The position numbers and the translations under genes are program-made. Below are positions 1 to 61,622 of a stretch of 64,000 nt of DNA, in pieces; within the stretch, counting starts at the first letter, position 1; every line of letters starts with the position of its first letter. The stretch is from an uncultured Candidatus Saccharibacteria bacterium. Lineage in GTDB: Bacteria; Patescibacteriota; Minisyncoccia; Phycocordibacterales; WO2-35-19. The stretch spans positions 33,760 to 97,759 of the forward strand of contig CAZVUY010000002.1 in NCBI GenBank assembly GCA_964630525.1, read 5' to 3'. The notes under the pieces are model-generated. The model was given only the letters and a program-made list of their open reading frames with translations. It was not told the origin of the DNA and made no database searches.

Positions 1-741
1 TTCCTGTCCAATTCAATATTTAAATCGCGCGCCTTTTCTGCCAAAGCCGATATTTGGGGGCCGCCCGGATATGGCAAATCAAGCATTCGAGCTACTTTGT
101 CGTAGGCTTCACCGACTGCATCGTCCAAAGTTTCGCCGATCTTTGTTTTGTTCAACCAGTTTTCAAGTAGGACGAGTTCGGTATGCCCACCACTGATCAG
201 GAGAGCAATCGCTGGAAATTTTATTTCTCTGTTTGAAAATTCCTCCGTTTTGTTAAACAAGACAGAGGCAATGTGTCCTTCCATGTGGTTTGTGCCGTGT
301 ACTGGAATTTGCCACTTTTGGCCTAGTATTTTGGCGAAAGTGATGCCGGTCCAAAGAGCTGGTTCGAGGCCGGGCCCTACCGTGACAGCTATGAGGTCAA
401 TGCTCGGGTTAGCCACACGTTCAAATGTTTTTTGCCAAATACGATCTATCTCTTCCTGGCGATCGGTATCAGCTATCAAGTTTTCATTTAAAATTTTCAA
501 GGTTTCTTCTGAGATCAGTCCAGCCTTAAAAAGACTTTCAGCCAATACTGGCAATAAGTTTCGCTGGTGCTCTCTTTTGGCTAGCCCGGGCACCACTCCA
601 CCAAAAGCACGGTGCAAATCTATTTGGCTTTGGATAGCGCTACCAAGTACGCGAAAATTGGGCGCTTCTAAACTCCCGTTTCCCTCGACAACGCTCACCG
701 CCGTCTCATCGCAACTTGTCTCAATACCCAGAATAATCATG
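1..741 (-). CDS. tsaD: tRNA N6-adenosine threonylcarbamoyltransferase TsaD (Kae1/Gcp family), 3' end cut by window edge
   Basis: Minus-strand translation from ATG (739-741) reads MIILGIETSCDETAVSVVEG...LAKREHQRN...VHGTNHMEGHIASV...GGHTELV, the Kae1/TsaD N-terminus and HxxxH metal motif; the + ORF 148..756 in the track is its antisense shadow. Confidence 0.85.
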
Positions 742-3220: not shown

Positions 3221-5695
3221 ATGGCTAAAATGGCTAAAAAAGAGGAAAAAAACGATGAAATTCTAAATACTGGGTCTAGTGTGGTGTCGCGCTCGATCGT
3301 GACCGAGATGAAAAAATCCTTCATCGACTATGCCATGTCGGTGATCACTGATCGAGCTTTGCCGGATGTGCGCGATGGCCTAAAGCCGGTTCACCGCCGC
3401 ATTCTCTATGCCATGCATACCATGGGCCTCACCGCTTCGGCTAAGTCTCGAAAGTCGGCCACAGTGGTGGGAGAAGTTTTGGGTAACTACCACCCGCACG
3501 GCGATGTCGCTGCTTATGATGCGATGGTCAAGATGGCTCAAGATTTCGGCTATCGTTACCCACTGATCGTCGGTCAGGGAAACTTTGGTTCAATTGACGG
3601 AGATTCACCAGCGGCGATGCGTTACACCGAAGCCAAGATGAGTCGGATCGCCGGCGAACTTTTGCGTGATATAGGCAAGGAGACGGTCAATTGGGTACCC
3701 AACTACGATGCCACCAAAAAAGAGCCGGCAGTTTTGCCGAGCGCAGCTCCGCAGCTTTTGCTCAACGGCACCTTGGGTATTGCGGTTGGTATGGCGACCA
3801 ATGTGCCACCCCACAATCTAAGAGAAGTGGTAGATGCGACTGTTTATTTGATAGACAACAAAGAGGCGACAACTGAAGATTTGCTGGAATTTGTCCAAGG
3901 TCCGGATTTCCCACTGGGTGGTGTTATTTTCAATGCCAAAGATATCCAACATGCCTATTCGACTGGTCGCGGCGGGGTGGTTTGCCGAGGAGTGGCTGAG
4001 ATCGTGGAAGATAAAAATATTTCCCAAATAGTCATCACTTCTCTACCTTATCGAGTCAATAAACAGTCTCTTGTTGAAAAAATAGCAGAGTTGGTTCGTG
4101 ATAAAAAACTTGAAGGCATCAAGGGTTTGCGTGACGAATCGACCAAGGACATTCGAGTGGTGATCGATCTCAAAAACGGTAGTTATCCGCAAAAAGTACT
4201 CAACTTTCTCTATAAACACACTCAACTTGAGGAAACTTTCCATTTCAACTTGGTGGCGCTCGTAGACGGCGTACCTCAGACCCTTTCGCTCAAAGGTATT
4301 TTGGAGGAGTTTATCAAACATCGACAGATAGTGGTGCGTCGGCGCACCGAATTTGACTTGCGCGAAGCCGAAGCGAGAGAGCATATCTTGCTCGGTCTCA
4401 AAAAGGCACTTGATCATATCGACGAGATCATCAAATTGATCAAGAAGAGCAAGGACGTGGATACCGCTAGAGCAAACTTGATGAAGGAGTTCAAATTCTC
4501 CGAGATTCAAGCCAACGCTATTTTGGAAATGCGACTCCAGAAACTCGCCGGTCTTGAAAGGCAGAAGATCGAAGATGAACTCAATGCGGTGCAGGCTCTG
4601 ATCAAAGAACTCAAAGATATTCTAAGCAATCCCAAAAAGATCCTCTCTATTATCAAGAAGGAACTTTCTGAAATCAGTCAAAAATATGGCGATGATCGTC
4701 GTACCAAGGTGATCAAAGGCGGTGTCAAAGTGCTTTCGATCGAAGATTTGATCGCTGACGAAGACAACACCCTTATTCTGACTGCTGGTGGCTACGTGAA
4801 GCGCACTCACCCAGACGAATATCGCAAACAAAAACGCGGCGGGGTGGGAGTGGTTGATTTGGATACCAAGGAAGAAGATTTTGTAACCAACTTTTTAACA
4901 GCCAGCACTCATTCAGACCTCTTATTCTTCACGGATCGAGGTAAGGCTTACCAAATCAAGATGCACGAATTGCCGGAAGGCAAGCGAGCGACGCGCGGCA
5001 AGTCGATCATGAATTTCCTCTCGCTTTCGGAAGGGGAGAAGGTGACCTCAATCTTACCAATGCCTAAAAATTTGAAAGAAAATAAAGATTTGTCGCTACT
5101 TATGGTGACCAGCGATGGTACCGGCAAAAAAGTTTCAGCTGCCAGTTTCCATGATGTGCGAGCGAGCGGTATTATCGCGATCAGACTTTCTGATGGGGAT
5201 CGGTTGGTATCGGTTTCGGCGGTTACCAAGGGAGATACCTGTGTGGTAGTGACTGCCAAGGGCCAATCAATCCGGTTTAAGGAAAATGATGTTAGGGAAA
5301 TGGGTCGGACTGCCGGTGGAGTGAGAGTGATTAAGTTGAGCAAAAATGACCGGGTGGTTGGCGCTCATCCAGTACCGAAAGAAAAAGAGAAAGACGCTGC
5401 TCTTTTGACCATGGGTGCAGGTGGTTATGGCAAGAAGACTCCGATTGGTGAATACAAAATACAAAATCGTGGTGGCAGCGGTATCAAGACCAGCAATGTG
5501 ACAGCGAAGACTGGCGAGATTATCGCTTCAGCGGTGGTTACCGGTGAAGAGGAGGAGGCAGTGGCTATGTCTAAAAAGAGCCAAGTGATCCGCCTCGGCC
5601 TCTCTGAAATACCGTCATTGGGCCGCTCTACTCAAGGAGTCCGTATCATGAAGCTCTACCCTGGTGACTCCATCGCTTCTTTCATTTGTCTATAG
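3221..5695 (+). CDS. gyrA: DNA gyrase subunit A
   Basis: 824 aa; N-terminal [28 protein letters not shown] and HPHGD motif, active-site region [11 protein letters not shown]-terminal beta-pinwheel repeats. Confidence 0.95.
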
Positions 5696-6340
5696 TTCCT
5701 CCCAGTCAGTACAAAGGGTGCCCCTTTGCATGTAAATTCCCTTCGTTTCTTTTTCAAATCCTTCCTTGTTGCCAAAAATATTCGGAAAAATATCTTTTGA
5801 TATTATTGGCAAACTCACATTTCTTAAATTGGTAAAATCTGTAAAACTACTCCATTTATAGTTAATTGGACTATTAGTTAAGCCGTCTTTTACTGGGTTC
5901 ATATGTATATATGAAGATATCCACCTCAGCTGTTGATCTGTTTCAATCCTGACAGCCTTAAATTGATCCTGAAAAACATGACCCACTCTATTGTACTTTT
6001 TATTTATATACATTGAAAAACTGGTACACAATCTTAACATCAAACTCGAGATTGGTTGATTTTTTAATTGCTCTATAAGCAAATGAAAATGATTTGGCAT
6101 TAGACAAAATGCATGTATTTTAAATGAATTTTTATCTGCCGTGAATTTAATTCTTGATTTGGGGAAAAACAACAAATCATGATCCAGTTCTTTTTTATCA
6201 AAACCCAATGCCAAGCCTAATCTAAATAAAAAAGCTCTATTATCGTCATTATCAAGAAAAACTTTTTCTCGGTTATTACCTCTATTATAAACATGATAAA
6301 TAGAGTTCGGTTGAAAATTTTTATAATCTCTTTTTCTCAC
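5690..6340 (-). CDS. REP-associated tyrosine transposase (RayT / IS200-like Y1 HUH transposase)
   Basis: 216 aa with [10 protein letters not shown]...[13 protein letters not shown] (HUH motif) and a downstream Tyr region; flanked by inverted REP palindromes; its stop codon overlaps the gyrA stop by 6 nt. Confidence 0.8.
5712..5728. repeat. REP palindrome copy 1 (CAAAGGG-TGC-CCCTTTG)
   Basis: exact 17-mer; lies inside the RayT C-terminal coding region. Confidence 0.8.
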
Positions 6341-6353
6341 ACTTCAATTATAA

Positions 6354-6370
6354 CAAAGGGTGCCCCTTTG
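6354..6370. repeat. REP palindrome copy 2
   Basis: exact 17-mer ACAAAGGGTGCCCCTTTGT upstream of the RayT start. Confidence 0.8.
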
Positions 6371-6397
6371 TGCTACGTATTCAACAGTTTTTAGGGA

Positions 6398-7708
6398 TTG
6401 GGATTTTGGATTTGCTATAATATAACCATGACAAAATTTCAGTTGATCGTCACTGGCATTTTCGGTGCTTTCTTGGTGATCGGGATTATTATTTTCTCAG
6501 CTTACCGAGGTTCCTCGGAAGACGCAGCCAAGATAGTTGTCTGGGGCACCATCTCTAACCTGGCTTTCAATGACATCATCCAATCCACCTCACTCTACCA
6601 AAACAAACTTTTTGATATCACTTATGTACAAAAATCAGAAGCTAGTTTCGACGCTGACTTTATAGACGCACTGGCTTCTGGTACCGGGCCAGACCTTTTC
6701 ATTCTACCGAGTAACAAAATTCTCAAGCATTACAACAAAATTTTCCTGATCCCTTACAATGTTTTCACCGAGCGACAATTCAAAGATTCTTTTATTGAAG
6801 GAGCAGAAATCTACATGGCCCCCGATGGTATTGTTGGGCTACCTATCTACACCGACCCCTTGGTAATGTATTGGAATCGGGCGATCTTTCGCGACGCCAA
6901 ACTTACAGAGCCACCCAAATATTGGGATGAGTTTTACAATCTCGCCAACCTTATCTCGGTCAAAGATGGGGCGCTCAATATTTTGAAAAGCGCGGTTGCT
7001 TTCGGTGAGTTTGCCAACGTCACCAACGCCAAAGAGATAATTGTCAATTTGGCGATGCAGGCCGGTACCCCAGTCACTCTCTGGAATGCGGGTAAGGTGC
7101 AAAGTGTTTTCAATTTTACTTTTGATAAGCCGACTGTTCCAGCCGAAGCGGCGGTCAATTTTTACACCGAATTTGGCAACCCAACCAAACCCTCATACTC
7201 TTGGAACCGTTCTCTACCGAGTTCAGCCAACTACTTTTTAGGCGGAGATTTAGCTTTGTACTTTGGTTTTGCGAGCGAGGTGACTAATCTACAAGTCAAA
7301 AATCCTAACTTGAATTTCGATGTGGCGAGGGTCCCTGTCTCCCGGGAAGGAGGTACTCTGGTTTCTTATGCTGATTTTGGTGCCCTCGCTATCACCAAAT
7401 CTTCTAAAAATCCAAACGCCGCTTTCCAGGTAGCCTCCATCCTCTCCGGTAGCGAGGGGGCCAGTGCCTTTAGCGCTGCTCTAAGATTGCCTTCGGCTCG
7501 GCGTGACCTGCTCAACAAGAGGCCGGAAAATGCTTATCAAAGTGTCTTCCGGGACAGTGCGATCAGGGCCAAGAGTTGGCTTGATCCAGACCAGGCGATG
7601 AGCGATCAGATTTTCAAAAACATGATTGAGTCGATCACAAGCGGTCGAGCGAGGACTACCGCCGCCGTCTCCCGTGCTCACCAAGAACTTTCTAACCTTT
7701 TAAAATAA
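6398..7708 (+). CDS. extracellular solute-binding protein (ABC transporter SBP family 1-like), N-terminal membrane anchor; likely start MTKFQL at 6428
   Basis: 436 aa; signal-anchor TM, then a YWDEF and W/Y-rich sugar-SBP-like fold; stop is 1 nt before the first pilin gene. Confidence 0.6.
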   Translation: MGFWICYNITMTKFQLIVTGIFGAFLVIGIIIFSAYRGSSEDAAKIVVWGTISNLAFNDIIQSTSLYQNKLFDITYVQKSEASFDADFIDALASGTGPDLFILPSNKILKHYNKIFLIPYNVFTERQFKDSFIEGAEIYMAPDGIVGLPIYTDPLVMYWNRAIFRDAKLTEPPKYWDEFYNLANLISVKDGALNILKSAVAFGEFANVTNAKEIIVNLAMQAGTPVTLWNAGKVQSVFNFTFDKPTVPAEAAVNFYTEFGNPTKPSYSWNRSLPSSANYFLGGDLALYFGFASEVTNLQVKNPNLNFDVARVPVSREGGTLVSYADFGALAITKSSKNPNAAFQVASILSGSEGASAFSAALRLPSARRDLLNKRPENAYQSVFRDSAIRAKSWLDPDQAMSDQIFKNMIESITSGRARTTAAVSRAHQELSNLLK

Positions 7709-7709
7709 T

Positions 7710-8108
7710 ATGAGGAAAGTTATATTCAGTATCATTTTGACGATCATATTGCTGGTGCCGGTTGTACCGGTTTTGGCTCAGGGTAGTTTTATACCTTGTG
7801 GTGGTTACGACGAGGCCGGCAAGCAACAACCGGAATGCGGCTACTATGATCTGCTCAAGATGATAAATACTATTATCAAGTGGATCATCATTGTCTCTGC
7901 GCCAGTCGCGGCTGGGGTGATGGCTTGGGCGGGTTTTATGTACATGACAAGCGGGGTAGTCGATCAGAAAGCGGCGGCTAAAAAAATGATGTGGAAAGTT
8001 TTGATCGGCTTTGCTTTTATTCTCGGTGCCTGGCTCATAGTTTCCACTTTGCTCGATGCACTGCTTGCTGACAGTTTTAGAGATGCGGTGCCTGTTAATT
8101 TCAAGTAA
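7710..8108 (+). CDS. TrbC/VirB2-like (T4SS-type) pilin paralogue 1
   Basis: 132 aa; signal peptide, Cys-containing segment, two C-terminal TM helices with MWKVLIGFAFILGAW, like the other six paralogues. Confidence 0.7.
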   Translation: MRKVIFSIILTIILLVPVVPVLAQGSFIPCGGYDEAGKQQPECGYYDLLKMINTIIKWIIIVSAPVAAGVMAWAGFMYMTSGVVDQKAAAKKMMWKVLIGFAFILGAWLIVSTLLDALLADSFRDAVPVNFK

Positions 8109-8117
8109 AATAAAGAC

Positions 8118-8573
8118 ATGTCAAAATTTTTGAAAACAATTGCTCCATTCCTTGCTAATTTTATACTGATGTTTGTTCTGGTGATGCCTCTACTCTCTCG
8201 TTCTCAAGGAGTTAACAACCCGCCTCCTGGTGGAGTTAACAATCCGCCTCCTGGCGGCAGCGGTAAGGTAATAAATATCGAGAATCCATTCAAGTGTCCT
8301 TCTGGTAGTGGTGCTAACAACAAATGCACTATTCCAGATTTTATAGAGGTCATTATCAGAAAAATTTTGATGCCGATCGGCGGGGTGGTAGCGGTTCTCA
8401 TGGTCATGTGGGCGGGCTTTCTTTATGTGACAGCGGGTGGTAATGAGACCCAGATCAAAAAAGCGCACGATGCTCTGCTATCGGCGGTGATCGGTGCCGC
8501 CATCCTACTTGGTGCTTGGGCGATAGCCTCTGCCATCCAGGCCACCATCAATGAGCTGAGCGCGACAAGTTAA
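8118..8573 (+). CDS. TrbC/VirB2-like pilin paralogue 2 (contains tandem VNNPPPGG repeat)
   Basis: 151 aa; signal peptide, GVNNPPPGG duplicated (nt ~8208-8258), TM hairpin MVMWAGFLYV...AILLGAWAIAS. Confidence 0.7.
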   Translation: MSKFLKTIAPFLANFILMFVLVMPLLSRSQGVNNPPPGGVNNPPPGGSGKVINIENPFKCPSGSGANNKCTIPDFIEVIIRKILMPIGGVVAVLMVMWAGFLYVTAGGNETQIKKAHDALLSAVIGAAILLGAWAIASAIQATINELSATS

Positions 8574-8582
8574 TAAGCGGCA

Positions 8583-8939
8583 ATGAAAAAACCAATCTAC
8601 CTCAAAATATTTATAACCTCCATTCTGGCTACACCGCTGTTTGCCTGGGCCTTCCCTCGAGATTTGACTGGGATTATAAACATGTTTATCGACATTGGTT
8701 TGCGAGTCATCCCGTTCCTCGGCACGGGCGCCTTCCTAGTATTCGTGCTCGGAGTTGCCAAGTTTATCCGATCAGCCGGTAGCGAAAAGGAGATCAAAGA
8801 TAGCAAAAATCTGCTGATCTGGGGTGTCGTCGGCCTTTTTGTGCTGGTCACAGTCTGGGGGATTGTCTCTTTTCTACGAAGCGAGTTTGGTTTTGAGGGT
8901 GGGGTAGGGATACCGCAGGTCAGATTGAAATCAAATTAA
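8583..8939 (+). CDS. TrbC/VirB2-like pilin paralogue 3
   Basis: 118 aa; signal peptide, TM1, K/E-rich loop (SEKEIKDSKN), TM2 LLIWGVVGLFVLVTVWGIVSF. Confidence 0.7.
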   Translation: MKKPIYLKIFITSILATPLFAWAFPRDLTGIINMFIDIGLRVIPFLGTGAFLVFVLGVAKFIRSAGSEKEIKDSKNLLIWGVVGLFVLVTVWGIVSFLRSEFGFEGGVGIPQVRLKSN

Positions 8940-8949
8940 TTTAAAAGTT

Positions 8950-9258
8950 ATGGGAATAGTTGGTATTATTGATTCGGCTACAAGTATAATCAAAAATGTG
9001 CTAATACCATTAGCTTTCGCTTTATGTTTGTTATATTTCTTTTGGGGTGTGGTGATATACATAAGGAAAGGGGTGGGTAGCGAAGAGGCCGCCAAAGAGG
9101 GCAAGAGGGTGATGGTATTCGGTATCATAGGTCTTTTTGTGGCGGTAGCGGTCTGGGGTATTGTATCTTTTATCCAAAGTGAGCTTGGTATTTTACCAAT
9201 TGAAAATATAGAAAGACCAGGATCAGAATATACCACCGAGAATATTATATACCAGTAA
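8950..9258 (+). CDS. TrbC/VirB2-like pilin paralogue 4
   Basis: 102 aa; same topology, VMVFGIIGLFVAVAVWGIVSFI. Confidence 0.7.
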   Translation: MGIVGIIDSATSIIKNVLIPLAFALCLLYFFWGVVIYIRKGVGSEEAAKEGKRVMVFGIIGLFVAVAVWGIVSFIQSELGILPIENIERPGSEYTTENIIYQ

Positions 9259-9278
9259 TAATTTATCAGACTTAGAAA

Positions 9279-9701
9279 ATGAAAATGCCAAATAAAAATT
9301 ATAGTTATCTTGCTTTAGTAATATTTTGTTGGCCTGTTTTTGCTGGTGCAGAAGTATTTGGTAAAACCAGAGGTATTTTGGAAAGTTTGGCTAGTATAGT
9401 AGGCAGAGTTTTGATACCACTCGTCTTTTCTTTGGCCGTACTCTTCTTTTTATATGGGGTGACCAAGTATATTTGGTCAGAAGGCGATAAGAAAGAAGAT
9501 GGAAAGAAGGTGATGGTCTGGGGGGTGGTCGCTTTATTTGTCATGTCCTCAGTGTGGGGCTTGGTGGCTTTTATTGAAAAGGAGCTTTTGGGTAGTTCTT
9601 CTCCTAAAAATGTTAAGATACCGACTATTGGAGGTTCTGCCAATGGTGGTGGTGATCCAGAGTGTGTACCGGATCCGATCAGTGGTAATCCTTGTCCGTA
9701 A
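9279..9701 (+). CDS. TrbC/VirB2-like pilin paralogue 5
   Basis: 140 aa; signal peptide, VMVWGVVALFVMSSVWGLVAFI, Gly/Cys-rich tail. Confidence 0.7.
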   Translation: MKMPNKNYSYLALVIFCWPVFAGAEVFGKTRGILESLASIVGRVLIPLVFSLAVLFFLYGVTKYIWSEGDKKEDGKKVMVWGVVALFVMSSVWGLVAFIEKELLGSSSPKNVKIPTIGGSANGGGDPECVPDPISGNPCP

Positions 9702-9799
9702 ATGTCCTGTGGATATTGTTTGATGTTTTATAAATAAAGTTATATACTGTTTAGGAAATTAAAATGGTCGTTCATTTTATTATTATTTTATAAAATTGT

Positions 9800-10153
9800 A
9801 TGAGTACAAAAATCAAAATCGGAACATTGGTGGCGAGCGCATTCTTTTTGCCTCTAGTTTCTTTTGCTGCTCTTGAGAATATTACTGAATTAGTTGGCGA
9901 TATCGGAGAGATCATCAACACTATTATTCCGATAATGTTTGCCATTGCTCTGATCGGTTTCTTCTATGGTTTGATCAAATACATCTTTGGTGCCGAGCAC
10001 GACAAAGAGGCAGCCAAGAAGACTATGATCTGGGGTATAGTAGCTCTTTTTGTTATGAGCGCTGTCTGGGGTCTTGTCAATTTCTTAGGAACCGCTGTAG
10101 GTGTTGATCCAACGGATGCACCGGATGTTAGTGGCTTGATTCCTAATAACTAG
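9800..10153 (+). CDS. TrbC/VirB2-like pilin paralogue 6
   Basis: 117 aa; TMIWGIVALFVMSAVWGLVNFL. Confidence 0.7.
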   Translation: MSTKIKIGTLVASAFFLPLVSFAALENITELVGDIGEIINTIIPIMFAIALIGFFYGLIKYIFGAEHDKEAAKKTMIWGIVALFVMSAVWGLVNFLGTAVGVDPTDAPDVSGLIPNN

Positions 10154-10171
10154 TTCGTAAATAGTTGTTCA

Positions 10172-10199
10172 CAAAAAACAGGACATAGTCCTGTTTTTT
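10172..10199. terminator. intrinsic terminator hairpin (bidirectional) after pilin 6
   Basis: AAAAAACAGGAC-ATA-GTCCTGTTTTTT, 7-bp stem flanked by A6 and T6. Confidence 0.6.
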
Positions 10200-10232
10200 G
10201 ATTTTATAGAAACATTCGTATAAAATATTGTT

Positions 10233-10496
10233 ATGACTTCTTTGACCACTCTGATTAGCAAAATTGTCGCTCTCATCATCAATCCGCTTATCGTACTGGG
10301 TTTTGTGGTGGCGACCATTGTCTTCTTTTATGGGATTGTCCAATTGATCAGGGGGGCGGATGGTTCTGACTTAGAACAGCGGAAGCGCAATGTAGTCTAT
10401 GGTTTGGTCGGTCTTTTCGTCATGTTTTCTGTCTATGGTATCTTGCGCCTAGTGCTCAATACTTTTGGTATCGAGTGGCCTTCATTTTTCGGGTAA
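10233..10496 (+). CDS. TrbC/VirB2-like pilin paralogue 7 (short)
   Basis: 87 aa; VVYGLVGLFVMFSVYGILRL; preceded by its own terminator/promoter spacing. Confidence 0.65.
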   Translation: MTSLTTLISKIVALIINPLIVLGFVVATIVFFYGIVQLIRGADGSDLEQRKRNVVYGLVGLFVMFSVYGILRLVLNTFGIEWPSFFG

Positions 10497-10529
10497 AAAT
10501 GAAGGGCGCGAATCTCTTCGCGCCCTATG

Positions 10530-11495
10530 TTACCGGGTGAATGGGTCGGTGAACCGGACCTCTACGGTCATCGGTTCCTTTTCCTTATGCCGGAAGCTGA
10601 ATGTTCTTGGCACAACGTCCAAGTTTAGCACCTCGCCACACCCGAAGACCTTCTGGTCGTCTTCGTCGGCTCGGATTTCGCAACCTTCCTGCTTGTTCGG
10701 GTACCAACGAACCTTCTCAAACCGCCGGTCGTTGTTGACGACCGGGCTCCACTCTCCGTCTTTCGAAGCCACCTCTTCTTTTCTAGAGGAGGGTGGCACC
10801 TTCGTGTCTGGACTATAACCGAGAGCCATAAGTTTTGGCCCCCAGCAGGCCCGGCCGCCGCCAAACTGCTCGTCGTGGTCCCAGGGACCAAAATCTTCTT
10901 TCTCGTACAAGTACGAGAAGTATCGATCCTGTCCCTCCTCAGTATTCAGGTCGAAACCGAGATCGAGAGCGGGCTTGCGATGCATTTCCCGGAATTGGTA
11001 CTTCCCGAAAGCATCGGAAGGTTTGATTCCCTTGGAGGGAATGCCTTTGTTCCGAGTTGGGATTTTGTTTCCCTTGTCATCTAGGACAAAGTTCCCATCC
11101 TTACCCTTCTCGAATTGTTGGCAGTTGGTCTCACACTCACAGACCACTCGCCGCGCCACTTCAAGAGGAACGCGAGTGGCCTGTGCTACTACTGGTCTTT
11201 GTAGGTACTGCTTATTGTCCCTGGTCCAGAAGTAATAACCCGCGAATGCGAGGCAAATTACTACCGGCGTTGCTACCAACCATTTGACTGGTAAATTTTT
11301 GGACGACCCCCCACTTTTTGCTTGTTGTGGTGGTAGGGTAGTTCGCGGTTGTTGTTGAGGGGGTTCTTGAGCAGGAGTCTGCTTTTTGTAAGGATCAATC
11401 TTCCTGTCTCCGCCCCCAAAAAACTCTTCTCTTTTGTACATAAAACCAAATACAAAGAGAAGAAAGATGAAACCTAAGGCTCCCCAGAATTCCAT
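10530..11495 (-). CDS. hypothetical membrane-anchored protein (GC-rich, foreign-looking)
   Basis: 321 aa; N-terminal TM, Pro/Gln-rich linker, second TM, Cys-containing globular part; local GC clearly above the surrounding genome. Confidence 0.5.
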   Translation of the reverse strand: MEFWGALGFIFLLFVFGFMYKREEFFGGGDRKIDPYKKQTPAQEPPQQQPRTTLPPQQAKSGGSSKNLPVKWLVATPVVICLAFAGYYFWTRDNKQYLQRPVVAQATRVPLEVARRVVCECETNCQQFEKGKDGNFVLDDKGNKIPTRNKGIPSKGIKPSDAFGKYQFREMHRKPALDLGFDLNTEEGQDRYFSYLYEKEDFGPWDHDEQFGGGRACWGPKLMALGYSPDTKVPPSSRKEEVASKDGEWSPVVNNDRRFEKVRWYPNKQEGCEIRADEDDQKVFGCGEVLNLDVVPRTFSFRHKEKEPMTVEVRFTDPFTR

Positions 11496-27522: not shown

Positions 27523-30500
27523 GTGAGAAAAATAACGCAAAAATTTTTGACCTGCCTGCTCGTTCTGTTTTTGCTATGCCTAAATTCTATAGGTAGTCTT
27601 GTTGTGGCAGAGGAAATTACTGAGCAAGAAATCTTGCCTCAGGCTGCCAACCTCCCTTCCGAGATAGTACAAACTGAAGATCAAGAGACATTTTTGGAAA
27701 CTAACACAGATGTAAAAACTGATATCGAAAATACAAGCGAAGCAGAAACTCCAAGTGATCAGAACGTTCCGGGTGATAATGATCAAAACAAAAGCATACA
27801 GCCGATCCTCGATATTTTGGCGACAACCACGGCTATATCTGTTACCGATCAGGGTGTTGTCGGTTTCCACGATTCTCTTCAACCAGCTGCTATCGGCGAC
27901 CAGGATATACCAACCAAAGAAGAGTCTATAGAAAATATTGATATTGAAGAGTTAACTGACCTTGAACCAGCAGGAGAAGTTCTTGCGGCCATTGCTACTT
28001 CTAGCGCGGCTTCTGCTTCCACTTCCACTTTGACTACCACTCCAGCTGATGATTTTGATGGAGTATCCTTTTTTCAAAAAAGAATGGATATGACCTTTTC
28101 CAAAAACCCGACCAATTTTCTTACTCTCAGAAGTGTAAATCATGATGAAAGATTGCGCTTTGGTATAAGTGGAAGTGTAGCAGAGCTAGATATGATTGTT
28201 GCTAGCAACACGGTTTCTTATAAAAATGCTTTTGAATCTTCCGACTTCACTTATAACATTGGAGAGAAAAGTCTAAAAGAATCTATTATTCTAACAGACA
28301 AAAATCATCCGAGCAGTTTCCTGTTTAGTGTCAATTTGTCTGACTTTGATTACAAGTTTGTAGATAAGGAAATAGTTCTTTATAAAAAGGGGCAGTCAGG
28401 GAACGCTTTTTTTAAGCTGTTTACGATCAGGGCGCCGTTTATGGTCGACGCTCAAGGTGAACGGAATGATATGATGTATGAAGTAGACGGGGACAGTATA
28501 AGGCTTGTGTTGGATGGTGGGTGGCTTAAGCAAGCATCTTATCCGGTGGTGGTCGATCCAACCATAGATATCGAGGTTTTAACAGTGCACTCACATCCTG
28601 CTCAAGGCGAGTATTGGAACGTCGATTTTATTACGGTAGGGACTTCTGATCTGACCATCACACCAGCTGATAAAGCAACAATAGAAGACGACGAGTTCTC
28701 TTCTCTTAAGTGTGGCGATGAAGATAGGACAACGGGCGTCCAGGTGCTATCTGGAGATGTTATTTTTTATCCGAACTGGAATTGTGAGGAGATAGCTACG
28801 GTTAGTCACTTGACTCTAAAGGCTGGCAACCACCATTTAATTTTTGATTTCGGGGGTGAAACTGCAGAAGCATTCAATGCGGCTTTGGTATGGACAGGTC
28901 TTGCTGGTGATGGTCTCTACAGCACGGCTGGCAACTGGTCTACTTCTAAAGTTCCCTCTGCTGCGGATACAGTTTCTTTTGATAATACTTGTACAAACTG
29001 TGATATGACTTTAGACGTTTCGACTACCACCGCTTCCTTCACCATGGCGTCAACTTATTCGGGAACCATTACTCAGGCAAACGGTACGGATTTTATTGTC
29101 ACCGGTGCTTTTTCTCAGTCAGCTGGAACTTTTAGAGGAGGAAATGGCTCAAATACATATCAGGGAAATTTTACGGTAAGTGGAGGGAGTTATGTGTCCG
29201 CTACTACAACCACTTTTACGAGTGGAAACAACACAATAAACATAAATACTACTCAAACATTCTATAACCTTACTTTCAATGGTGCGGGCACCTTCAAAAC
29301 CATCAGTTCTGGAGATACTCTAATTGTTGATAACACACTTACCTTAACTGATGGAGGGGTAAACACTGGTACTATAGAAGCAAGGGGTGACATAAGTACC
29401 GCCTCAACATTTGATGGGGGAACGGCAGTTATAGATTTCGCCAACGATTCTCTTGCTCAGACTTGGACGGTTTCTGGAGGTGTCTCGCCGGTAGTGAGAT
29501 TTAACAGTGCCTCGGACGCTTCGGACTCTGTTGTTATTAATGCGGCTGCAACATTCTATGGAGCTACTACCACCTCTTCTTTTTCTGGAATAATCCCTTT
29601 TTCAAATCCGAGTGCTTATGATTTGACGTTTGGAACGGTCGGCTCATCTTTTACTTGGCATCAAGCCGCCGGAACATTCAATGGTAGTACGGGCACAGTC
29701 ACGATTGCTCAGGGTAGTACTTTTACCATATCCGGTGGAACTTACAATGCCGCCAGCAGCACGGTTTTTGGTACTGGCAACATAACAGTCAACGTAAATA
29801 GTACCCAATCATTTCACGACCTTACTTTTAATGGTGGAGGTACTTATAAAACTATTAGCACAGGAGACACTTTGGTTGTAAATGGGACTTTGTATCTGAC
29901 CGATGGAGGTATCCATAGTCCGGGAAGTTTACAAGCCAATGGGGATATAGTTCAAACCGCAAATTTTGACGGAGGCAGTGTTTATATCGATTTTGCCAAT
30001 GATTCTCTCGCTCAAACCTGGACAGTGGCCGGGGGTACCGGTCCCGGTTTTAGACTGGACAGTGCAGCTGACGCTTCTGATAGCATTGTTATAAATGCCG
30101 CCGCTACATTTTCTGGAGCAAGCACCACGGCTAATTTTGTTGGGACTATTCCTATATCAAATTCAAGTAATTTCGATCTTACTTTTGGATCGACCGCTGG
30201 AGGGCTTGATGCTTGGCAACAAGCCGCCGGAACATTTAATGGTGGTACAGGCACCGTGACATTTACTTGGACTAACAATGTGGTTATATCCGGCGGTACT
30301 TACAATGCGGCCAGCACTACGGTGTTTAACGTCGGCAATATGACGATCAATGTAAATAGCAGTCAAACATTCCATAATTTAACTTTAAGCGGCGCGGGTA
30401 CTTTCAAGACAATAAGCGCCGGAGATACGTTGGTGGTTACTGGCGATCTAAATTTAACTGATGGGGGTCTCAACGGTACTGGAATAATGGAAGCCCAAGG

Positions 30501-35190: not shown

Positions 35191-35273
35191 GCCGCGGTGG
35201 CGGAATGGCAGACGCGATAGACTCAAAATCTATTGATGGCAACATCGTGTGGGTTCAAGTCCCACCCGCGGCA
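35191..35273 (+). tRNA. tRNA-Leu (anticodon CAA)
   Basis: GCCGCGGTGGCGGAATGGCAGACGCGATAGACTCAAAATCTAT + variable arm + GTGGGTTCAAGTCCCACCCGCGGCA. Confidence 0.85.
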
Positions 35274-35275
35274 CA

Positions 35276-35860
35276 ATGAAAAAGCGTGTAAGTAGTGATA
35301 AAAAACTTCATGCGTATATCGTCGGTCTGGCTCTCGGTGACGGAAATCTGTCAAATTCGAATGGGAGAGCTGTTAAGTTAAGGGTTACTTGCGACGCAAA
35401 GTATCAAAAACTGAATAAACACATTTTTGAATCTTTACAGAAATTTCTACCTGATAATAAGGTTTTTGTTTGTAATTCCATTAAAAAGACTTCTGTTGAT
35501 ATTGTTTGTTACTCTAATTATTTAGAAAATTTATTAGGTTGGAAAGCTAAAGGAGGTTCAAAATACTACCAAAAAGTTGAAATACCAGATTGGATCTTAA
35601 GAGATAAAGACTTTATAAGGGAATGTTTGAGAGGTTTGGTTCAGACAGACGGATCGATTTATATAGATAGAGGGTATAAAATGGTAAATATGGTAAGTAA
35701 CATAGAATCTTTAGCTAAATCAACCATAGGGGCAATAATCTCTTTGGGGTACAAACCTAATACACAGGTGCATAACGATCCAAAAACAAGAAAATATACA
35801 ATAAGAATTTCAAAAGATGTAAATAAGTTTATTAAGGATATAAAACTATGGAAGAAATAG
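35276..35860 (+). CDS. LAGLIDADG-family homing endonuclease (two-motif, single-chain)
   Basis: ~195 aa; motif 1 LHAYIVGLALGDGNLS, motif 2 LRGLVQTDGSIY; AT-rich codon usage; ATG lies 3 nt after the tRNA-Leu(CAA) 3' end (track ORF begins 35249 inside the tRNA). Confidence 0.8.
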   Translation: MKKRVSSDKKLHAYIVGLALGDGNLSNSNGRAVKLRVTCDAKYQKLNKHIFESLQKFLPDNKVFVCNSIKKTSVDIVCYSNYLENLLGWKAKGGSKYYQKVEIPDWILRDKDFIRECLRGLVQTDGSIYIDRGYKMVNMVSNIESLAKSTIGAIISLGYKPNTQVHNDPKTRKYTIRISKDVNKFIKDIKLWKK

Positions 35861-55685: not shown

Positions 55686-57071
<1,386 letters not shown>

Positions 57072-57103
57072 GAAAGTCAGAAAATAAAAAGTAAAAAATA
57101 GAT

Positions 57104-57367
57104 ATGAATTTAAAAGTTGTGACACCAGACGGAGTAGTTTGGAATGCAGAAGTGGATTTCGTCAATCTCAAGACGACTCTTGGCGAGATCACTGTTTTAC
57201 CCAAACACATACCACTAATAACAACTCTAGAATTTGGGATGGTACGGGTCCGGAGCGATGGTCGCGATTTTCGAGCCGAATGTTCGGGTGGCGTGCTTGA
57301 GGTTAAAAAAGACAGTCAGGCGATAATCATAACTGAACATTGCTCCAAGTTTCTCGCTGAAGAATAA
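57104..57367 (+). CDS. atpC: F0F1 ATP synthase subunit epsilon (beta-sandwich domain only)
   Basis: 87 aa, MNLKVVTPDGVVWNAEVDFV start typical of epsilon; lacks C-terminal helical hairpin. Confidence 0.8.
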   Translation: MNLKVVTPDGVVWNAEVDFVNLKTTLGEITVLPKHIPLITTLEFGMVRVRSDGRDFRAECSGGVLEVKKDSQAIIITEHCSKFLAEE

Positions 57368-57374
57368 GAAATTT

Positions 57375-57971
57375 TTAGATTTGATTAGGCTGCGGAATAA
57401 ATTTGAAAGACTGAAGAAGCGGTTCAAAATCGCGATAAAGATTTGAGTTTGTGTCTAAGTAGGCTCCACTGATCACATACATGTTTTCTCCGTGAGCGAC
57501 CACTATGTTGTTTGACCGGTAGAGCCCGTCAGCAGAATATCTGATCGCATTTGCACCACCAAGGACCGTCTCTTCCATGTCTCCTAGTTCAAGATTGATA
57601 TTGGTCCACTCTATATTTTCGCTAGACCAAACCAGCGGCCACTGTTTTTTAGTGTTTTTGACTACGTGAATAGTGATGGTGGCCGGCCCTTCGCCGAATT
57701 CTCCATTGTTTTGCAAGCCCACCTCATCAGTTTTTTGCATCAAGACCAATGTTTTTAGTAAGTTTGGATTGGTGCTGACTGTTTGAGGGTCTTTTTCGAT
57801 CAGGGTGTAACCCTCTGGTTCGATGCGATATTGAAATTCAAAACCGAGTTCCGGGCTGGAAAAAGTTTGATAAGTAGCGACCGTTTTGTTGGCACCATTT
57901 TTAGGCTTTAGAAACCAGTATCCAGCAGACGCAACAAGCAAAACAAGAATAATGACAAATATTTTTTTCAT
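57375..57971 (-). CDS. hypothetical exported/anchored protein
   Basis: 198 aa, N-terminal signal/TM. Confidence 0.45.
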   Translation of the reverse strand: MKKIFVIILVLLVASAGYWFLKPKNGANKTVATYQTFSSPELGFEFQYRIEPEGYTLIEKDPQTVSTNPNLLKTLVLMQKTDEVGLQNNGEFGEGPATITIHVVKNTKKQWPLVWSSENIEWTNINLELGDMEETVLGGANAIRYSADGLYRSNNIVVAHGENMYVISGAYLDTNSNLYRDFEPLLQSFKFIPQPNQI

Positions 57972-58015
57972 GACCCAATATTAGCAAATTTTTATGATCT
58001 CTGACAAATAAAACC

Positions 58016-58492
58016 TTACTTCATCACTGCATAGGTGAAGAGTACGCTAAATTTTTTGCACCAAATAACGACAGTCTGATAATCCTCTGTACCCACTGGC
58101 AATTCATAATTTTGGTTGCCTTGGGTGCCTTTGAGTAGACCCAAATTAACAAAGTCGCCGAGACTTTCAATATCATTGGTTGGAGCAGAGGAATTTGATA
58201 GATATACATACAGATCCGGGCCGCTGGTCACGCTAAAATCTTCGAGCCGGATAAACTGTTTGCCATCGACTTCTACCAGCTTTGCTGTACCCGATCCCTT
58301 GTGAATAAAATCTATTTCTCCGAATGTTCCCGAAGCCAAAGTTTTCGATTCGCTCAGCGTCCCTTGCGTCTGGTTAGTTGGGGTCGGTAGAGTTTCTTGC
58401 ACTTCTGTTTTAATAAAATAAGTATAAACGCCACTCCAGTATACGAAAAATCCGATCGCCAATATCACCAAAACTAAAATAATCTTTTTCAT
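58016..58492 (-). CDS. DM13-domain-like membrane-anchored protein
   Basis: 158 aa; GTFGEIDFIHKGSGTAKLVEVDG pattern resembles DM13. Confidence 0.5.
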   Translation of the reverse strand: MKKIILVLVILAIGFFVYWSGVYTYFIKTEVQETLPTPTNQTQGTLSESKTLASGTFGEIDFIHKGSGTAKLVEVDGKQFIRLEDFSVTSGPDLYVYLSNSSAPTNDIESLGDFVNLGLLKGTQGNQNYELPVGTEDYQTVVIWCKKFSVLFTYAVMK

Positions 58493-58593
58493 TTTTTAAG
58501 GTTTGTAGTTTTTTATAAATTAAAAATCTTTTATTTCTATATTTTCCGGCAAATCTCTTTCAGAAACCTCAATCACTTCTAATTGCTATCTCT

Positions 58594-59037: not shown

Positions 59038-59045
59038 TCTGTTTA

Positions 59046-59375: not shown

Positions 59376-59479
59376 AAAACTAGTCTAAACGAATTTTTTA
59401 TAAAAGAAAACCCCCTAGAATAAAGAGGTGAGTTGGTTATCTAATTTATCACTTCAGAACTAATTTATTCAAAACAAAA

Positions 59480-59815: not shown

Positions 59816-59932
59816 GGCACCATTAGTATAACAAATCGGCATTTTTTGTCAATCATAAAACACATTTTGTAAATGTCAAAAGCAGAAAAGCCTTATAAAA
59901 TAAGGGTATTTTAGGAAGTTAGAAAAAATGAG

Positions 59933-60241: not shown

Positions 60242-60286
60242 ATCGTATTTGAATAAAGGTAAGTTGTAAAGAAAAAACTCAATTTT

Positions 60287-60796: not shown

Positions 60797-60892
60797 AAAT
60801 TACAGTATAACAAAAGTTCACATAATTTTTAAATATATTTTCCAGGAGCAACAACAAAAAACCGCCCTATAAGGGCGATTTTCATGTTGGCT

Positions 60893-61591: not shown

Positions 61592-61622
61592 GCAAAAGTA
61601 AACATTTTTTATAAAAGAAAGA

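What the first reader, a model, noticed from the sequence alone, without database searches (positions are those of the whole stretch)
6398..10496. Tandem array of seven TrbC/VirB2-like pilin paralogues in one operon with a solute-binding-protein gene
Seven consecutive small ORFs (87-151 aa) share signal peptide, TM1, K/E-rich loop and TM2 with the WG(V/I)V(A/G)LFV motif, which is the topology of T4SS (conjugative) pilins. They diverge strongly outside the TM hairpin; paralogue 2 carries a duplicated VNNPPPGG unit and paralogue 1 a Cys-rich insert. The array starts 1 nt after the stop of an SBP-like exported protein. No VirB4/VirB6/VirD4 partner is in the window, so the assembly machinery is unknown. 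The diversity across paralogues suggests surface variation or a multi-subunit filament.
Basis: partly seen in the sequence, partly recalled or inferred. Interest (0 to 1): 0.65.

Follow-up and report, generated by a model that had tools for sequence, protein, structure and literature searches.

The report
VirB2-like pilin array of a Patescibacterium
Seven small genes next to gyrA in an ultra-small (CPR/Patescibacteria) bacterium encode divergent copies of the conjugative-pilus subunit, a gene array already described for this phylum; the apparently undescribed detail is that each copy, and a sugar-binding-protein gene fused to the front of the array, is kept in the same order across about 80 related species.

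Summary
Seven consecutive + strand ORFs (7710-10496) are TrbC/VirB2-type two-helix proteins, and six of seven pass Pfam's curated cut-off for PF18895 T4SS_pilin. They start 1 nt after a MalE-like solute-binding-protein (SBP) gene. No VirB4, VirB6 or VirD4 gene lies in the 64 kb.

Some details are wrong. Only 5 of 7 have a signal peptide. The WG(V/I)V(A/G)LFV motif occurs only in paralogues 3-7. The "Cys-rich" insert is one Cys pair. Promoter and terminator signals point to three transcription units rather than one: SBP-p1..p5, p6 alone, p7 alone.

The organism is a Zambryskibacteria-like Paceibacterium. Tandem arrays of 2-11 VirB2-like pilins in Patescibacteria are published (Wang 2023; Quiñonero-Coronel 2025), so this is a new member of a known kind.

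What I add: the block gyrA - SBP - pilins 1..7 is syntenic in 80 species-level genomes. The SBP gene sits directly upstream in 72 of 72 informative loci, usually overlapping or within 5 nt of p1. The paralogues are positional orthologues, 52-67% identical between species against 13-41% within the array. That argues against surface variation and for a fixed multi-subunit assembly, with p6 as candidate major subunit. Function remains inferred.

The parts
6416..6421 (+). -10 box (TATAAT) of the promoter of the SBP-p1..p5 unit, ending 6 nt before the ATG. This implies a leaderless or near-leaderless mRNA.
   Evidence: Sequence read. A >=5/6 -10 box sits exactly 6 nt before the SBP ATG in 29 of 60 related loci. 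The same spacing is also common at other genes of these genomes (41 of 319), so it is a lineage habit.
6428..7708 (+). MalE-type (SBP family 1, carbohydrate class) solute-binding-like protein, 426 aa, with an N-terminal TM anchor. It is the first gene of the unit.
   Evidence: Homologues at 64-98% identity carry PF13416/PF01547. PDB sequence hits are oligosaccharide SBPs, e.g. 4r9f at E 9e-8. The AF2 model (pLDDT 64.8) matches sugar SBPs/MalE by Foldseek at E about 1e-18. TM segment at residues 16-34 of the long ORF. The gene lies directly upstream of the array in 72 of 72 informative loci.
7710..8108 (+). Pilin paralogue 1 (132 aa), subgroup A. It has a signal peptide, a conserved Cys pair in the mature N-terminus, and a helical hairpin.
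   Evidence: PF18895 30.5 bits, TrbC 17.4. The Cys pair is conserved in orthologues. Positional orthologues score 80-150 bits against about 20 bits for other paralogues.
8118..8573 (+). Pilin paralogue 2 (151 aa), subgroup A. It has a signal peptide, a variable G/P-rich linker, a conserved NPFK motif and a hairpin.
   Evidence: PF18895 38.1 bits, TrbC 27.0 bits against a cut-off of 27.9. Orthologue alignment.
8208..8254 (+). 24-nt tandem duplication inside p2, encoding GVNNPPPG twice.
   Evidence: TRF reports period 24, 2.0 copies, 95% match; also seen. The linker is hypervariable among orthologues.
8583..8939 (+). Pilin paralogue 3 (118 aa), subgroup B.
   Evidence: PF18895 30.1 bits. Orthologues are mostly 90-100 aa without a signal peptide, median 67% identity.
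8950..9258 (+). Pilin paralogue 4 (102 aa), subgroup B, without a signal peptide.
   Evidence: PF18895 33.9 bits. The ORF is maximal and starts 10 nt after the p3 stop.
9279..9701 (+). Pilin paralogue 5 (140 aa), subgroup B. It has a signal peptide and a C-terminal tail with a Cys pair. It is the last gene of the tightly packed unit.
   Evidence: PF18895 23.9 bits, below the cut-off of 26.6. It is 29-41% identical to p3, p4, p6 and p7. Positional orthologues.
9720..9748 (+). Promoter-like site of p6 (TTGATG, 17-nt spacer, TATACT) in the 98-nt p5-p6 spacer.
   Evidence: Consensus scan. The -35 and extended -10 boxes, plus an upstream CTGTGGATTA box, align in 15 species.
9763..9772 (+). Conserved leader motif AATGGTCGTT upstream of p6. 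Its function is unknown.
   Evidence: GGTCG is invariant in 15 of 15 aligned spacers. There is a single exact copy in the window.
9800..10153 (+). Pilin paralogue 6 (117 aa), subgroup B, and candidate major subunit. It looks monocistronic, with its own promoter and terminator.
   Evidence: Best PF18895 score, 41.0 bits. The AF2 model has pLDDT 77.8 with helices 4-21 (signal peptide), 25-63 and 66-99. Orthologues are 43-74% identical.
10172..10200 (+). Intrinsic-terminator-like hairpin (13-bp stem flanked by A and T runs) directly after p6.
   Evidence: A strong hairpin followed by a T run lies in the same place in nearly all close relatives, with different sequences.
10198..10226 (+). Promoter-like site of p7 (TTGATT, 17-nt spacer, TAAAAT), with the -10 box ending 6 nt before the ATG.
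   Evidence: The same TAAAAT/TATAAT-N6-ATG arrangement can be read in the p6-p7 spacers of relatives.
10233..10496 (+). Pilin paralogue 7 (87 aa), subgroup B, without a signal peptide.
   Evidence: PF18895 27.6 bits. Orthologues are 85-93 aa, and many carry a C-terminal C...FFC pair that is lost here.
10503..10526 (.). GC-rich hairpin (10 bp, 7 GC pairs) between the convergent genes p7 and the 321-aa ORF. It is a likely terminator for one or both.
10530..11495 (-). Convergent 321-aa membrane-anchored protein with a C-E-S...GKYQ...CW.PKL core. It is a tentative Rpf/transglycosylase-like cell-wall enzyme, and its membership of the system is uncertain.
   Evidence: It is present at this spot in about 20 of 80 loci. 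Two of 16 orthologues hit PF06737, best E 1e-4. The window copy has no Pfam hit, there is no PDB hit, and no homologue is annotated.

Best explanation
This is the chromosomal, vertically inherited VirB2-like pilin cluster of a Paceibacteria (Zambryskibacteria-like) member of the Patescibacteria.

Shown:
- Seven ancient paralogues of the TrbC/VirB2 two-helix pilin fold lie downstream of gyrA, behind a membrane-anchored MalE-type sugar-binding-like protein.
- The gene order SBP-p1-p2-p3-p4-p5-p6-p7 and the identity of each position are conserved across about 80 species.

Inferred from signals:
- There are three transcription units. SBP-p1..p5 is tightly or translationally coupled. p6 stands alone between its own conserved promoter and a terminator. 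p7 stands alone.

Inferred mechanism:
- The proteins insert in the membrane as N-out/C-out hairpins with a cytoplasmic K/E loop. Conserved Cys pairs lie in the outer tails.
- The VirB4-type T4SS encoded elsewhere in the genome extracts and polymerises them into a heteromeric pilus or envelope-spanning conduit at the host interface.
- p6 is the bulk subunit. p1-p5 and p7 are low-copy initiator, tip or adaptor subunits.
- The co-translated SBP-like protein acts as an extracellular partner, either an adhesin or sensor for a host glycan or a ligand-capture module.
- This layout parallels a minor-pilin-plus-adhesin operon beside a separate major-pilin gene.
For: Family:
- PF18895 is above the curated cut-off for 6 of 7 paralogues, and TrbC is near its cut-off for p2.
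- NCBIfam's pilin-like conjugal transfer model is the top hit for all seven, though sub-threshold.
- The AF2 model of p6 is a signal peptide followed by a helical hairpin.
- There are no holin hits.

Lineage:
- Homologues and 80 loci all come from Zambryski-, Taylor-, Wolfe-, Vogel- and Campbellbacteria or Paceibacterota MAGs.

Synteny and coupling:
- The order MBL - gyrA - SBP - pilins - ... - IF2 holds in all loci and in independent gene calls with Pfam labels.
- The SBP gene is present in 72 of 72 informative loci.
- The distance from the SBP stop to the p1 start is -4 nt in 21 loci and -1 to +5 nt in 26 more.

Positional orthology:
- The order 1234567 is recovered in 20 loci and 123x67 in most others.
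- Median identity between species is 52-67% per position, against SBP 68%, IF2 62% and GyrA 85%. Identity within the array is 13-41%.

Transcription units:
-.

T4SS elsewhere and function:
- 22 of 25 Zambryskibacteria assemblies are VirB4-positive in Table S1 of PMC12102498. These include the source assemblies of L004, L012, L024 and L030, which carry this array.
- The pilin gene lies near virB4 in only 1135 of 1948 assemblies.
- The six-gene pilin array of Southlakia epibionticum is essential.
- T4SS pilins are among the most highly expressed unknown genes in the Patescibacteria genomes of a methanogenic enrichment culture (PMC10936435).
Against: - No T4SS ATPase or channel gene lies in the 64-kb window, and I could not read the rest of this genome.
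- No pilus of this type has been seen in any monoderm or Patescibacterium.
- Fold and profile searches against solved conjugative pilins gave nothing significant.
- Three of the seven positions lack a signal peptide, unlike classical VirB2/TrbC.
- The major versus minor assignment rests only on promoter and terminator signals.
- The role of the SBP is pure inference. It is a normal-looking ABC-type sugar SBP by sequence and fold.
- Natural proteins with 2-3 fused hairpin modules exist in the family. These fit a membrane complex at least as well as a filament.
Confidence: 0.6

Rival explanations
1. The paralogues form a membrane-embedded hetero-oligomer rather than a filament. They stay in the cytoplasmic membrane as part of the T4SS translocon, or as a channel that works with the tethered SBP to take up host-derived glycans, a binding-protein-dependent route without a classical ABC permease.
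For: - Monoderm T4SSs are not known to make pili.
- Three of the seven positions lack signal peptides.
- The SBP gene is translationally coupled to the array in almost every species.
- No ABC permease or ATPase gene lies in the window.
- About a third of the best family hits are single polypeptides with 2-3 hairpin modules, effectively 4-6-TM proteins.
Against: - The only profile families matched are pilin families.
- SBP family 1 proteins are otherwise known only with ABC permeases, which could be encoded elsewhere.
- A monocistronic, terminator-flanked p6 suggests one subunit in large excess, which is typical of filaments.
- Nothing shows a transport function.
Confidence: 0.22
2. The paralogues are interchangeable alternative major pilins used for surface or host-range variation. 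This is the first reader's suggestion, and the analogy to Bartonella and Anaplasma is raised in PMC12102498.
For: - Paralogues are only 13-41% identical.
- The tails outside the hairpin are hypervariable, with indels and a recent 24-nt duplication in p2.
Against: - Each position has a clear orthologue in about 80 species, kept in the same order.
- Identity between species is similar to that of IF-2.
- There is no sign of gene conversion, recent duplication of whole genes, or copy-number turnover among close relatives.
- Signal-peptide status is specific to each position.
Confidence: 0.1
3. The SBP gene is only a neighbour. It serves an ordinary sugar ABC importer encoded elsewhere and shares a promoter with the pilins by accident of genome compaction.
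For: - It is a typical MalE-class SBP by sequence and fold.
- Patescibacterial genomes are compact with short spacers.
- The synteny of the whole gyrA-IF2 block is conserved, not only that of the SBP-pilin pair.
Against: - The gene is directly upstream in 72 of 72 informative loci.
- It overlaps p1 by 4 nt or lies within 5 nt of it in 47 of 72 loci. By contrast, genes such as the IS200-like ORF, a methyltransferase or a glycosyltransferase come and go between gyrA and the SBP gene.
- No permease or ATPase gene lies within 10 kb in any locus inspected.
Confidence: 0.3
4. The ORFs belong to an unrelated two-TM family such as holins or other small membrane proteins, and the pilin match is a hydrophobicity artefact.
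For: - Weak sub-threshold hits to assorted TM families (TctB, Cation_efflux, DUF350).
- Foldseek finds only generic helical hairpins.
Against: - Six of seven exceed the curated PF18895 threshold, and it is the best hit for all seven.
- There is no PHROG holin hit.
- The loop and helix-2 motifs are conserved across thousands of relatives.
- The setting is chromosomal housekeeping genes, not a prophage.
Confidence: 0.02

Closest known systems
VirB2-like pilin arrays of Patescibacteria (Quiñonero-Coronel et al. 2025, PMC12102498; the essential six-gene array of Southlakia epibionticum, Wang et al. 2023, PMC10633639)
   Same: - Same phylum and same Pfam family (PF18895/PF04956).
- Tandem arrays of 2-11 genes averaging about 25% identity.
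- Chromosomal location and no relaxase context.
- Proposed link to a MPF-FATA-like T4SS.
   Different: - This array lies far from any virB4 (none in 64 kb), whereas the Southlakia array is inside the T4SS cluster.
- The paper reports arrays as most abundant in Microgenomatia and Saccharimonadia, while this one is a Paceibacteria lineage feature.
- The papers I read do not mention the fixed SBP gene at the head of the array, the gyrA anchoring, the positional orthology or the split into three transcription units.
Conjugative pilins VirB2 (Ti plasmid), TrbC (RP4) and TraA (F) of diderm T4SSs
   Same: - Small proteins with two hydrophobic helices and a short charged loop.
- Usually a long signal peptide.
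- Profile-level homology (TrbC 27.0 bits for p2).
   Different: - Classical systems have one pilin gene inside the T4SS operon plus a VirB5 tip protein.
- Here there are seven paralogues, three without signal peptides, in a monoderm-type cell, with no adjacent machinery.
- No structural match could be demonstrated.
Type IV pilus gene organisation: a major pilin gene apart from a minor-pilin operon that includes the PilY1 adhesin. This is an analogy only, taken from general knowledge.
   Same: One monocistronic, terminator-flanked subunit gene (p6) sits beside an operon of several divergent subunits co-transcribed with a large non-pilin extracellular protein (the SBP).
   Different: - The protein families and assembly machines are unrelated.
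- The roles of p6 and of the SBP are inferred from gene layout only.
SBPs that act with T4SS or conjugation systems as sensors: ChvE with VirA in Agrobacterium, PrgZ of pCF10 (general knowledge)
   Same: A periplasmic or extracellular binding protein is functionally tied to a T4SS, and ChvE senses a sugar.
   Different: - ChvE and PrgZ act in regulation or pheromone import and are not co-translated with pilins.
- They belong to other SBP classes.
- No sensor kinase or Opp-type permease lies next to this gene.
Archaeal Ced/Ted DNA-import pili, whose subunits are VirB2-like
   Same: VirB2-type pilins are used by a cell without an outer membrane, possibly for import rather than export.
   Different: - The lineage and partner proteins (CedA/CedB) differ.
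- There are no multi-paralogue arrays and no SBP.

Membership tests
Pfam PF18895 T4SS_pilin / TrbC-VirB2 pilin superfamily | Profile match at or above the curated gathering score | tested here: met
   Six of seven score 27.6-41.0 bits against a cut-off of 26.6; p5 scores 23.9. TrbC PF04956 gives 27.0 for p2 against a cut-off of 27.9. The precomputed PF18895 label is on nearly all homologues.
Pfam PF18895 T4SS_pilin / TrbC-VirB2 pilin superfamily | Small protein with two hydrophobic helices joined by a short charged loop (helical hairpin) | tested here: met
   Hydropathy and alignment of all seven. The AF2 model of p6 has helices 25-63 and 66-99 with pLDDT 81-92.
Pfam PF18895 T4SS_pilin / TrbC-VirB2 pilin superfamily | Cleavable N-terminal signal peptide ahead of the hairpin | tested here: inconclusive
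   Present in p1, p2, p3, p5 and p6; absent in p4 and p7. Orthologues of p3, p4 and p7 mostly lack it. Cleavage itself cannot be tested here.
Pfam PF18895 T4SS_pilin / TrbC-VirB2 pilin superfamily | Structural similarity to solved conjugative pilins | tested here: inconclusive
   Foldseek against the PDB gave no hit at E<=1e-3. Profiles A1 and A3 against PDB sequences gave no pilin hit. The hairpin is too simple to discriminate.
Pfam PF18895 T4SS_pilin / TrbC-VirB2 pilin superfamily | Encoded with, or in a genome that has, VirB4-type T4SS machinery | tested here: inconclusive
   None in the 64-kb window or within 10 kb in 80 related loci. Published Table S1 marks 22 of 25 Zambryskibacteria assemblies as VirB4-positive, including four assemblies from which my syntenic loci come. 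The rest of this genome could not be read.
Pfam PF18895 T4SS_pilin / TrbC-VirB2 pilin superfamily | Polymerises into an extracellular pilus (protein-phospholipid filament) | not testable with these tools
   Needs microscopy or biochemistry. According to the reviews read, this is not shown for any Patescibacterium.
Patescibacterial VirB2 arrays (PMC12102498) | At least two VirB2-like genes in tandem, or separated by one non-pilin gene, in a Patescibacteria genome, with low identity within the array (about 25% on average) | tested here: met
   Seven genes in tandem with spacers of 9-98 nt and 13-41% pairwise identity. Patescibacterial origin is shown. The definition is quoted.
ABC-transporter solute-binding protein family 1 (MalE-like), for the upstream gene | Sequence and fold of a two-lobed type II binding protein | tested here: met
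   PDB phmmer hits are 4r9f at E 9e-8, plus 7eho, 8art and 2z8d. Foldseek gives E about 1e-18 and probability 1.0 to sugar SBPs/MalE, although the model is only moderate (pLDDT 64.8, residues 176-266 low). Homologues carry PF13416/PF01547. The window protein itself has no Pfam hit.
ABC-transporter solute-binding protein family 1 (MalE-like), for the upstream gene | Cognate permease and ATPase genes in the same operon or neighbourhood | tested here: not met
   No BPD_transp or ABC_tran ORF in the window, nor in the neighbourhoods with Pfam labels. The downstream genes are pilins.
Holins / phage two-TM proteins | Match to a holin family, in a phage lysis context | tested here: not met
   PHROGs gives no holin hit. 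The only hit is p1 to an unknown-function phrog at E 7.5e-5. The context is housekeeping genes.
VirB1 / Rpf-like lytic transglycosylase, for the convergent 321-aa ORF | Profile or fold match to a lysozyme-like domain with a catalytic Glu | tested here: inconclusive
   The C-E-S...GKYQ motif is conserved. Two of 16 orthologues hit PF06737 at best E 1e-4. The window copy and the core-domain profile hit nothing.

The most novel reading that the evidence does not exclude
The MalE-like protein is not a transporter component. It is an integral, co-assembled partner of a heteromeric VirB2-type pilus in Paceibacteria. The SBP plus p1-p5 form a priming or tip complex that recognises a host glycan. p6 builds the shaft, and p7 adapts it to the T4SS. 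This would be the first multi-subunit conjugative-type pilus, and the first with a binding-protein adhesin, in a cell without an outer membrane.
Probability: 0.2. Interest if true: 0.7.

Novelty: new member of a known kind. Interest (0 to 1): 0.38.

Why it matters
Patescibacteria make up a large share of bacterial diversity and live attached to host cells. Their T4SS and its pilin array are essential in the one genetically tractable species, yet their function is unknown.

This locus shows that in a second major class, Paceibacteria, the pilin set is a fixed, ordered, seven-member kit permanently coupled to a sugar-binding-like protein. That gives concrete, testable predictions:
- which subunit is the bulk one (p6);
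- that the paralogues are not interchangeable;
- that a glycan-binding protein takes part.

The finding does not reveal a new kind of system.

Tried and rejected
- Structure route to VirB2: the AF2 model of p6 is a clean hairpin, but Foldseek against the PDB returned only generic helical proteins at E>1. HMM profiles of the p6 group (A1) and the p1/p2 group (A3) against PDB sequences found no pilin.
- Holin or phage reading: no support from PHROGs.
- Finding the T4SS of this genome: the exact-protein look-up returned only a 10-kb Logan contig identical to the window. The cluster look-up gave no accession.
- Large unassigned ORFs in the 80 loci: none looks like VirB4 or VirD4. Pfam on ten of them gave only a near-threshold SLT_3 hit and a lipase.
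- The 321-aa neighbour as a VirB1 analogue: the motif resembles Rpf, but support is thin. Two of 16 orthologues hit PF06737, and the full-length and core-domain profiles against the PDB gave nothing relevant.
- Leaderless mRNA as a special feature of this operon: rejected, because the -10-N6-ATG spacing is also common at control genes.
- L029 as an exception lacking the SBP gene: this was an artefact of N-masking.
- Literature search for an SBP-pilin link in Patescibacteria: nothing found.

Full report
**What is in the sequence**

Between 7710 and 10496 the + strand carries seven back-to-back ORFs of 132, 151, 118, 102, 140, 117 and 87 aa. I call them p1 to p7. The spacers between them are 9, 9, 10, 20, 98 and 79 nt.

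p1 starts 1 nt after the stop of a 426-436-aa ORF (6398/6428-7708). All seven have two long hydrophobic helices joined by a short K/E-rich loop.

Pfam's PF18895 (T4SS_pilin) is the best family for every one. The scores are 30.5, 38.1, 30.1, 33.9, 23.9, 41.0 and 27.6 bits against a curated cut-off of 26.6, so six of seven pass. TrbC/VirB2 (PF04956) scores 27.0 for p2, just under its cut-off of 27.9.

NCBIfam's 'pilin-like conjugal transfer protein' model is the top hit for all seven, though below its threshold. PHROGs gives no holin match.

An AlphaFold2 model of p6 (pLDDT 77.8) is a signal-peptide helix followed by a helical hairpin. Fold and profile searches against solved structures were uninformative. 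Membership therefore rests on sequence profiles and topology.

- p4 and p7 have no signal peptide, although their ORFs are maximal. Among orthologues, positions 3, 4 and 7 usually lack one, while positions 1, 2, 5 and 6 always have one.
- The array holds two subgroups. p1 and p2 are 29% identical to each other, share a WAGF(M/L)Y motif, and have a mature N-terminal extension. p3 to p7 are 29-41% identical and carry the WG(V/I)V(A/G)LFV motif. Identity between the groups is 13-24%.
- The 'Cys-rich insert' of p1 is one Cys pair, which is conserved in orthologues. p2 and p5 also carry one pair each.
- The VNNPPPGG duplication in p2 is real. It is a 24-nt tandem repeat at 8208-8254.
- The upstream gene most likely starts at ATG 6428.

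**Whose genome**

The window is ordinary chromosome. It carries gyrA, infB, clpB, mur ligases, parB, relA, topA, dprA, serS, the ATP synthase genes and nine tRNAs.

Homologues of p6 and of the upstream gene come only from Paceibacterota, Minisyncoccia and Zambryskibacteria MAGs. A scan of one genome per species returned 80 loci, all Patescibacteria and mostly Zambryskibacteria.

Pfam scans of every long ORF found no VirB4, VirB6, VirD4, ABC permease or ABC ATPase in the window.

**The upstream gene**

It has an N-terminal TM anchor. Its sequence is related to oligosaccharide-binding proteins of ABC importers, for example 4r9f at E 9e-8, plus 7eho and 2z8d.

Homologues at 64-98% identity carry SBP_bac_1 and SBP_bac_8. 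An AF2 model of only moderate confidence (pLDDT 64.8) matches sugar SBPs and MalE at Foldseek E about 1e-18.

So it is a genuine MalE-class binding-protein fold, but it has no transporter genes nearby.

**Comparative result**

In all 80 related loci the gene order is:

metallo-beta-lactamase-fold gene - gyrA - (variable insert) - SBP - 5 to 9 pilin ORFs - ... - infB.

Independent gene calls with Pfam labels show the same order, even for relatives only 34-41% identical to p6.

The SBP gene lies directly upstream of the first pilin in 72 of 72 loci that have enough upstream DNA. The one apparent exception was an N-masking artefact.

The SBP stop overlaps the p1 start by 4 nt in 21 loci and lies within -1 to +5 nt in 26 more.

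I assigned each pilin ORF to its best-matching window paralogue and read the assignments along each locus. This gives 1-2-3-4-5-6-7 in 20 loci and 1-2-3-x-6-7 in most others. Score margins are large, for example about 120 against about 20 bits for p1.

Identity between the window and 23 close species:

| Protein | Median identity |
|---|---|
| p1 | 52% |
| p2 | 54% |
| p3 | 67% |
| p4 | 59% |
| p5 | 54% |
| p6 | 62% |
| p7 | 61% |
| SBP | 68% |
| IF-2 | 62% |
| GyrA | 85% |

Paralogues within the array share only 13-41%. The seven genes are therefore old, individually conserved and non-interchangeable. That is the opposite of a variation cassette.

**Transcription signals**

- An extended -10 box ends 6 nt before the SBP ATG (window 6416-6421). 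The same holds in 29 of 60 relatives. The spacing is also frequent at other genes of these genomes, so leaderless starts seem to be a lineage habit.
- The p5-p6 spacer holds a promoter conserved across 15 species: a CTGTGGATTA box, a TTGAnn -35 and a TATTAT/TATACT -10, at 9720-9748 in the window.
- The same spacer carries a leader motif, AAATGGTCGTT, with GGTCG invariant. It occurs once in the window.
- Directly after p6 there is a strong hairpin with a T run (10172-10200). Nearly all close relatives have a hairpin in the same place with a different sequence.
- p7 has its own -10 box 6 nt before its ATG. It ends at a GC-rich hairpin shared with the convergent downstream gene.

I infer three units: SBP-p1..p5, p6 alone, and p7 alone. 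p6 is the candidate high-copy subunit. None of this is shown by expression data for this organism.

**Comparison with what is known**

Tandem arrays of VirB2-like pilins are a described feature of Patescibacteria. Quiñonero-Coronel et al. report 441 arrays of 2-11 genes in 383 assemblies, averaging 25% identity. They find pilin genes near virB4 in only 1135 of 1948 assemblies.

The six-gene array of Southlakia epibionticum lies inside its T4SS cluster and is essential.

T4SS pilins are among the most highly expressed genes of unknown function in the Patescibacteria genomes of a methanogenic enrichment culture.

Table S1 of the 2025 paper marks 22 of 25 Zambryskibacteria assemblies as VirB4-positive. 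Four of these assemblies are the sources of my syntenic loci. A T4SS elsewhere in this genome is therefore likely, though I could not check it.

None of the papers I searched mentions an SBP gene heading the array, the gyrA anchoring, positional orthology or the split into transcription units. The 2025 paper also describes arrays as most abundant in other classes.

**Mechanism (inferred)**

The proteins insert as N-out/C-out hairpins. The conserved Cys pairs in the p1 N-terminus and in many p7 C-termini place both tails outside the cell.

The distant VirB4-type machine would extract and polymerise them into a heteromeric pilus or envelope conduit at the host contact site. p6 would be the shaft and the others low-copy initiator, tip or adaptor subunits. 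The co-translated SBP-like protein would be an extracellular glycan-binding partner.

The main rival is a membrane-resident hetero-oligomer, either part of the translocon or an SBP-linked uptake channel. Three things favour it: no pilus has been seen in monoderm T4SSs; three positions lack signal peptides; and many family members are natural fusions of two or three hairpin modules in one polypeptide.

The data disfavour the variation hypothesis. They effectively exclude a holin or other unrelated two-TM reading.

**Verdict**

The kind of element is already known, so this is a new member of it. It comes with a conserved SBP-coupled, positionally fixed architecture in Paceibacteria that appears undescribed and gives testable predictions. 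Interest is moderate.

Noticed in passing
window 5690-6340 (- strand); hairpin at 6353-6372: An IS200-like Y1 transposase ORF (PF01797, 53.5 bits) sits between gyrA and the SBP gene. Homologues occupy the same syntenic slot in at least nine other species (e.g. L003, L004, L007, L009, L012, L036, L041, L054, L069) and a different slot upstream of the MBL gene in five more. This suggests a conserved, possibly domesticated gene rather than a recent insertion. An 8-bp-stem hairpin, ACAAAGGG-TGC-CCCTTTGT, lies just upstream of its start.
   Followed up: partly
window 10530-11495 (- strand): A convergent 321-aa membrane-anchored protein has a conserved C-E-S...GKYQ(I/F)...CW.PKL core that resembles Rpf/transglycosylase-like domains. 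Two of 16 orthologues hit PF06737 (best E 1e-4). A different convergent neighbour in L073 hits SLT_3 (PF18896) at 26.4 bits against a cut-off of 27. It may be a VirB1-like wall-opening partner, but the evidence is thin.
   Followed up: partly
P0238, P0239, P0241, P0250: About a third of the 150 best p6 relatives, out of 1.84 billion representatives searched, are single polypeptides of 200-370 aa. Each holds two or three complete pilin hairpin modules joined by G/S/P-rich linkers. These are natural fusions, which hints that different modules sit side by side. The family is large: 6553 clusters at E<=1e-3.
   Followed up: partly
window 9763-9772, and the p5-p6 spacers of L002-L023: The conserved leader motif AAATGGTCGTT (GGTCG invariant in 15 of 15 species) lies about 30-45 nt upstream of the p6 start, and a conserved CTGTGGATTA box lies upstream of the -35. 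Both are unique to this spot in the window, and their function is unknown.
   Followed up: partly
L002-L081, many genes: A -10 box ending exactly 6 nt before the start codon is common in these genomes (41 of 319 control ORFs, 29 of 60 SBP genes). This suggests that leaderless mRNAs are frequent in this Paceibacteria lineage.
   Followed up: partly
window 27523-33486 (+ strand): A 1987-aa Thr/Ser/Gly-rich ORF with an N-terminal signal peptide and a C-terminal TM segment has no Pfam match. It looks like a giant surface protein.
   Followed up: no
window 35191-35860: A LAGLIDADG-type ORF (PF14528, 26.8 bits; 35249-35860) begins inside the 3' end of tRNA-Leu(caa) (35191-35274).
   Followed up: no
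window ~57000-64000: GC content falls to 0.37-0.40 and the cumulative GC skew turns over near 57-58 kb. ORFs here include a Zeta_toxin/AAA_33-like kinase, a DUF4268 protein, a DM13 protein and a borderline Terminase_2 hit (26.0 against a cut-off of 26.1). This may be an integrated element or a replication landmark.
   Followed up: no
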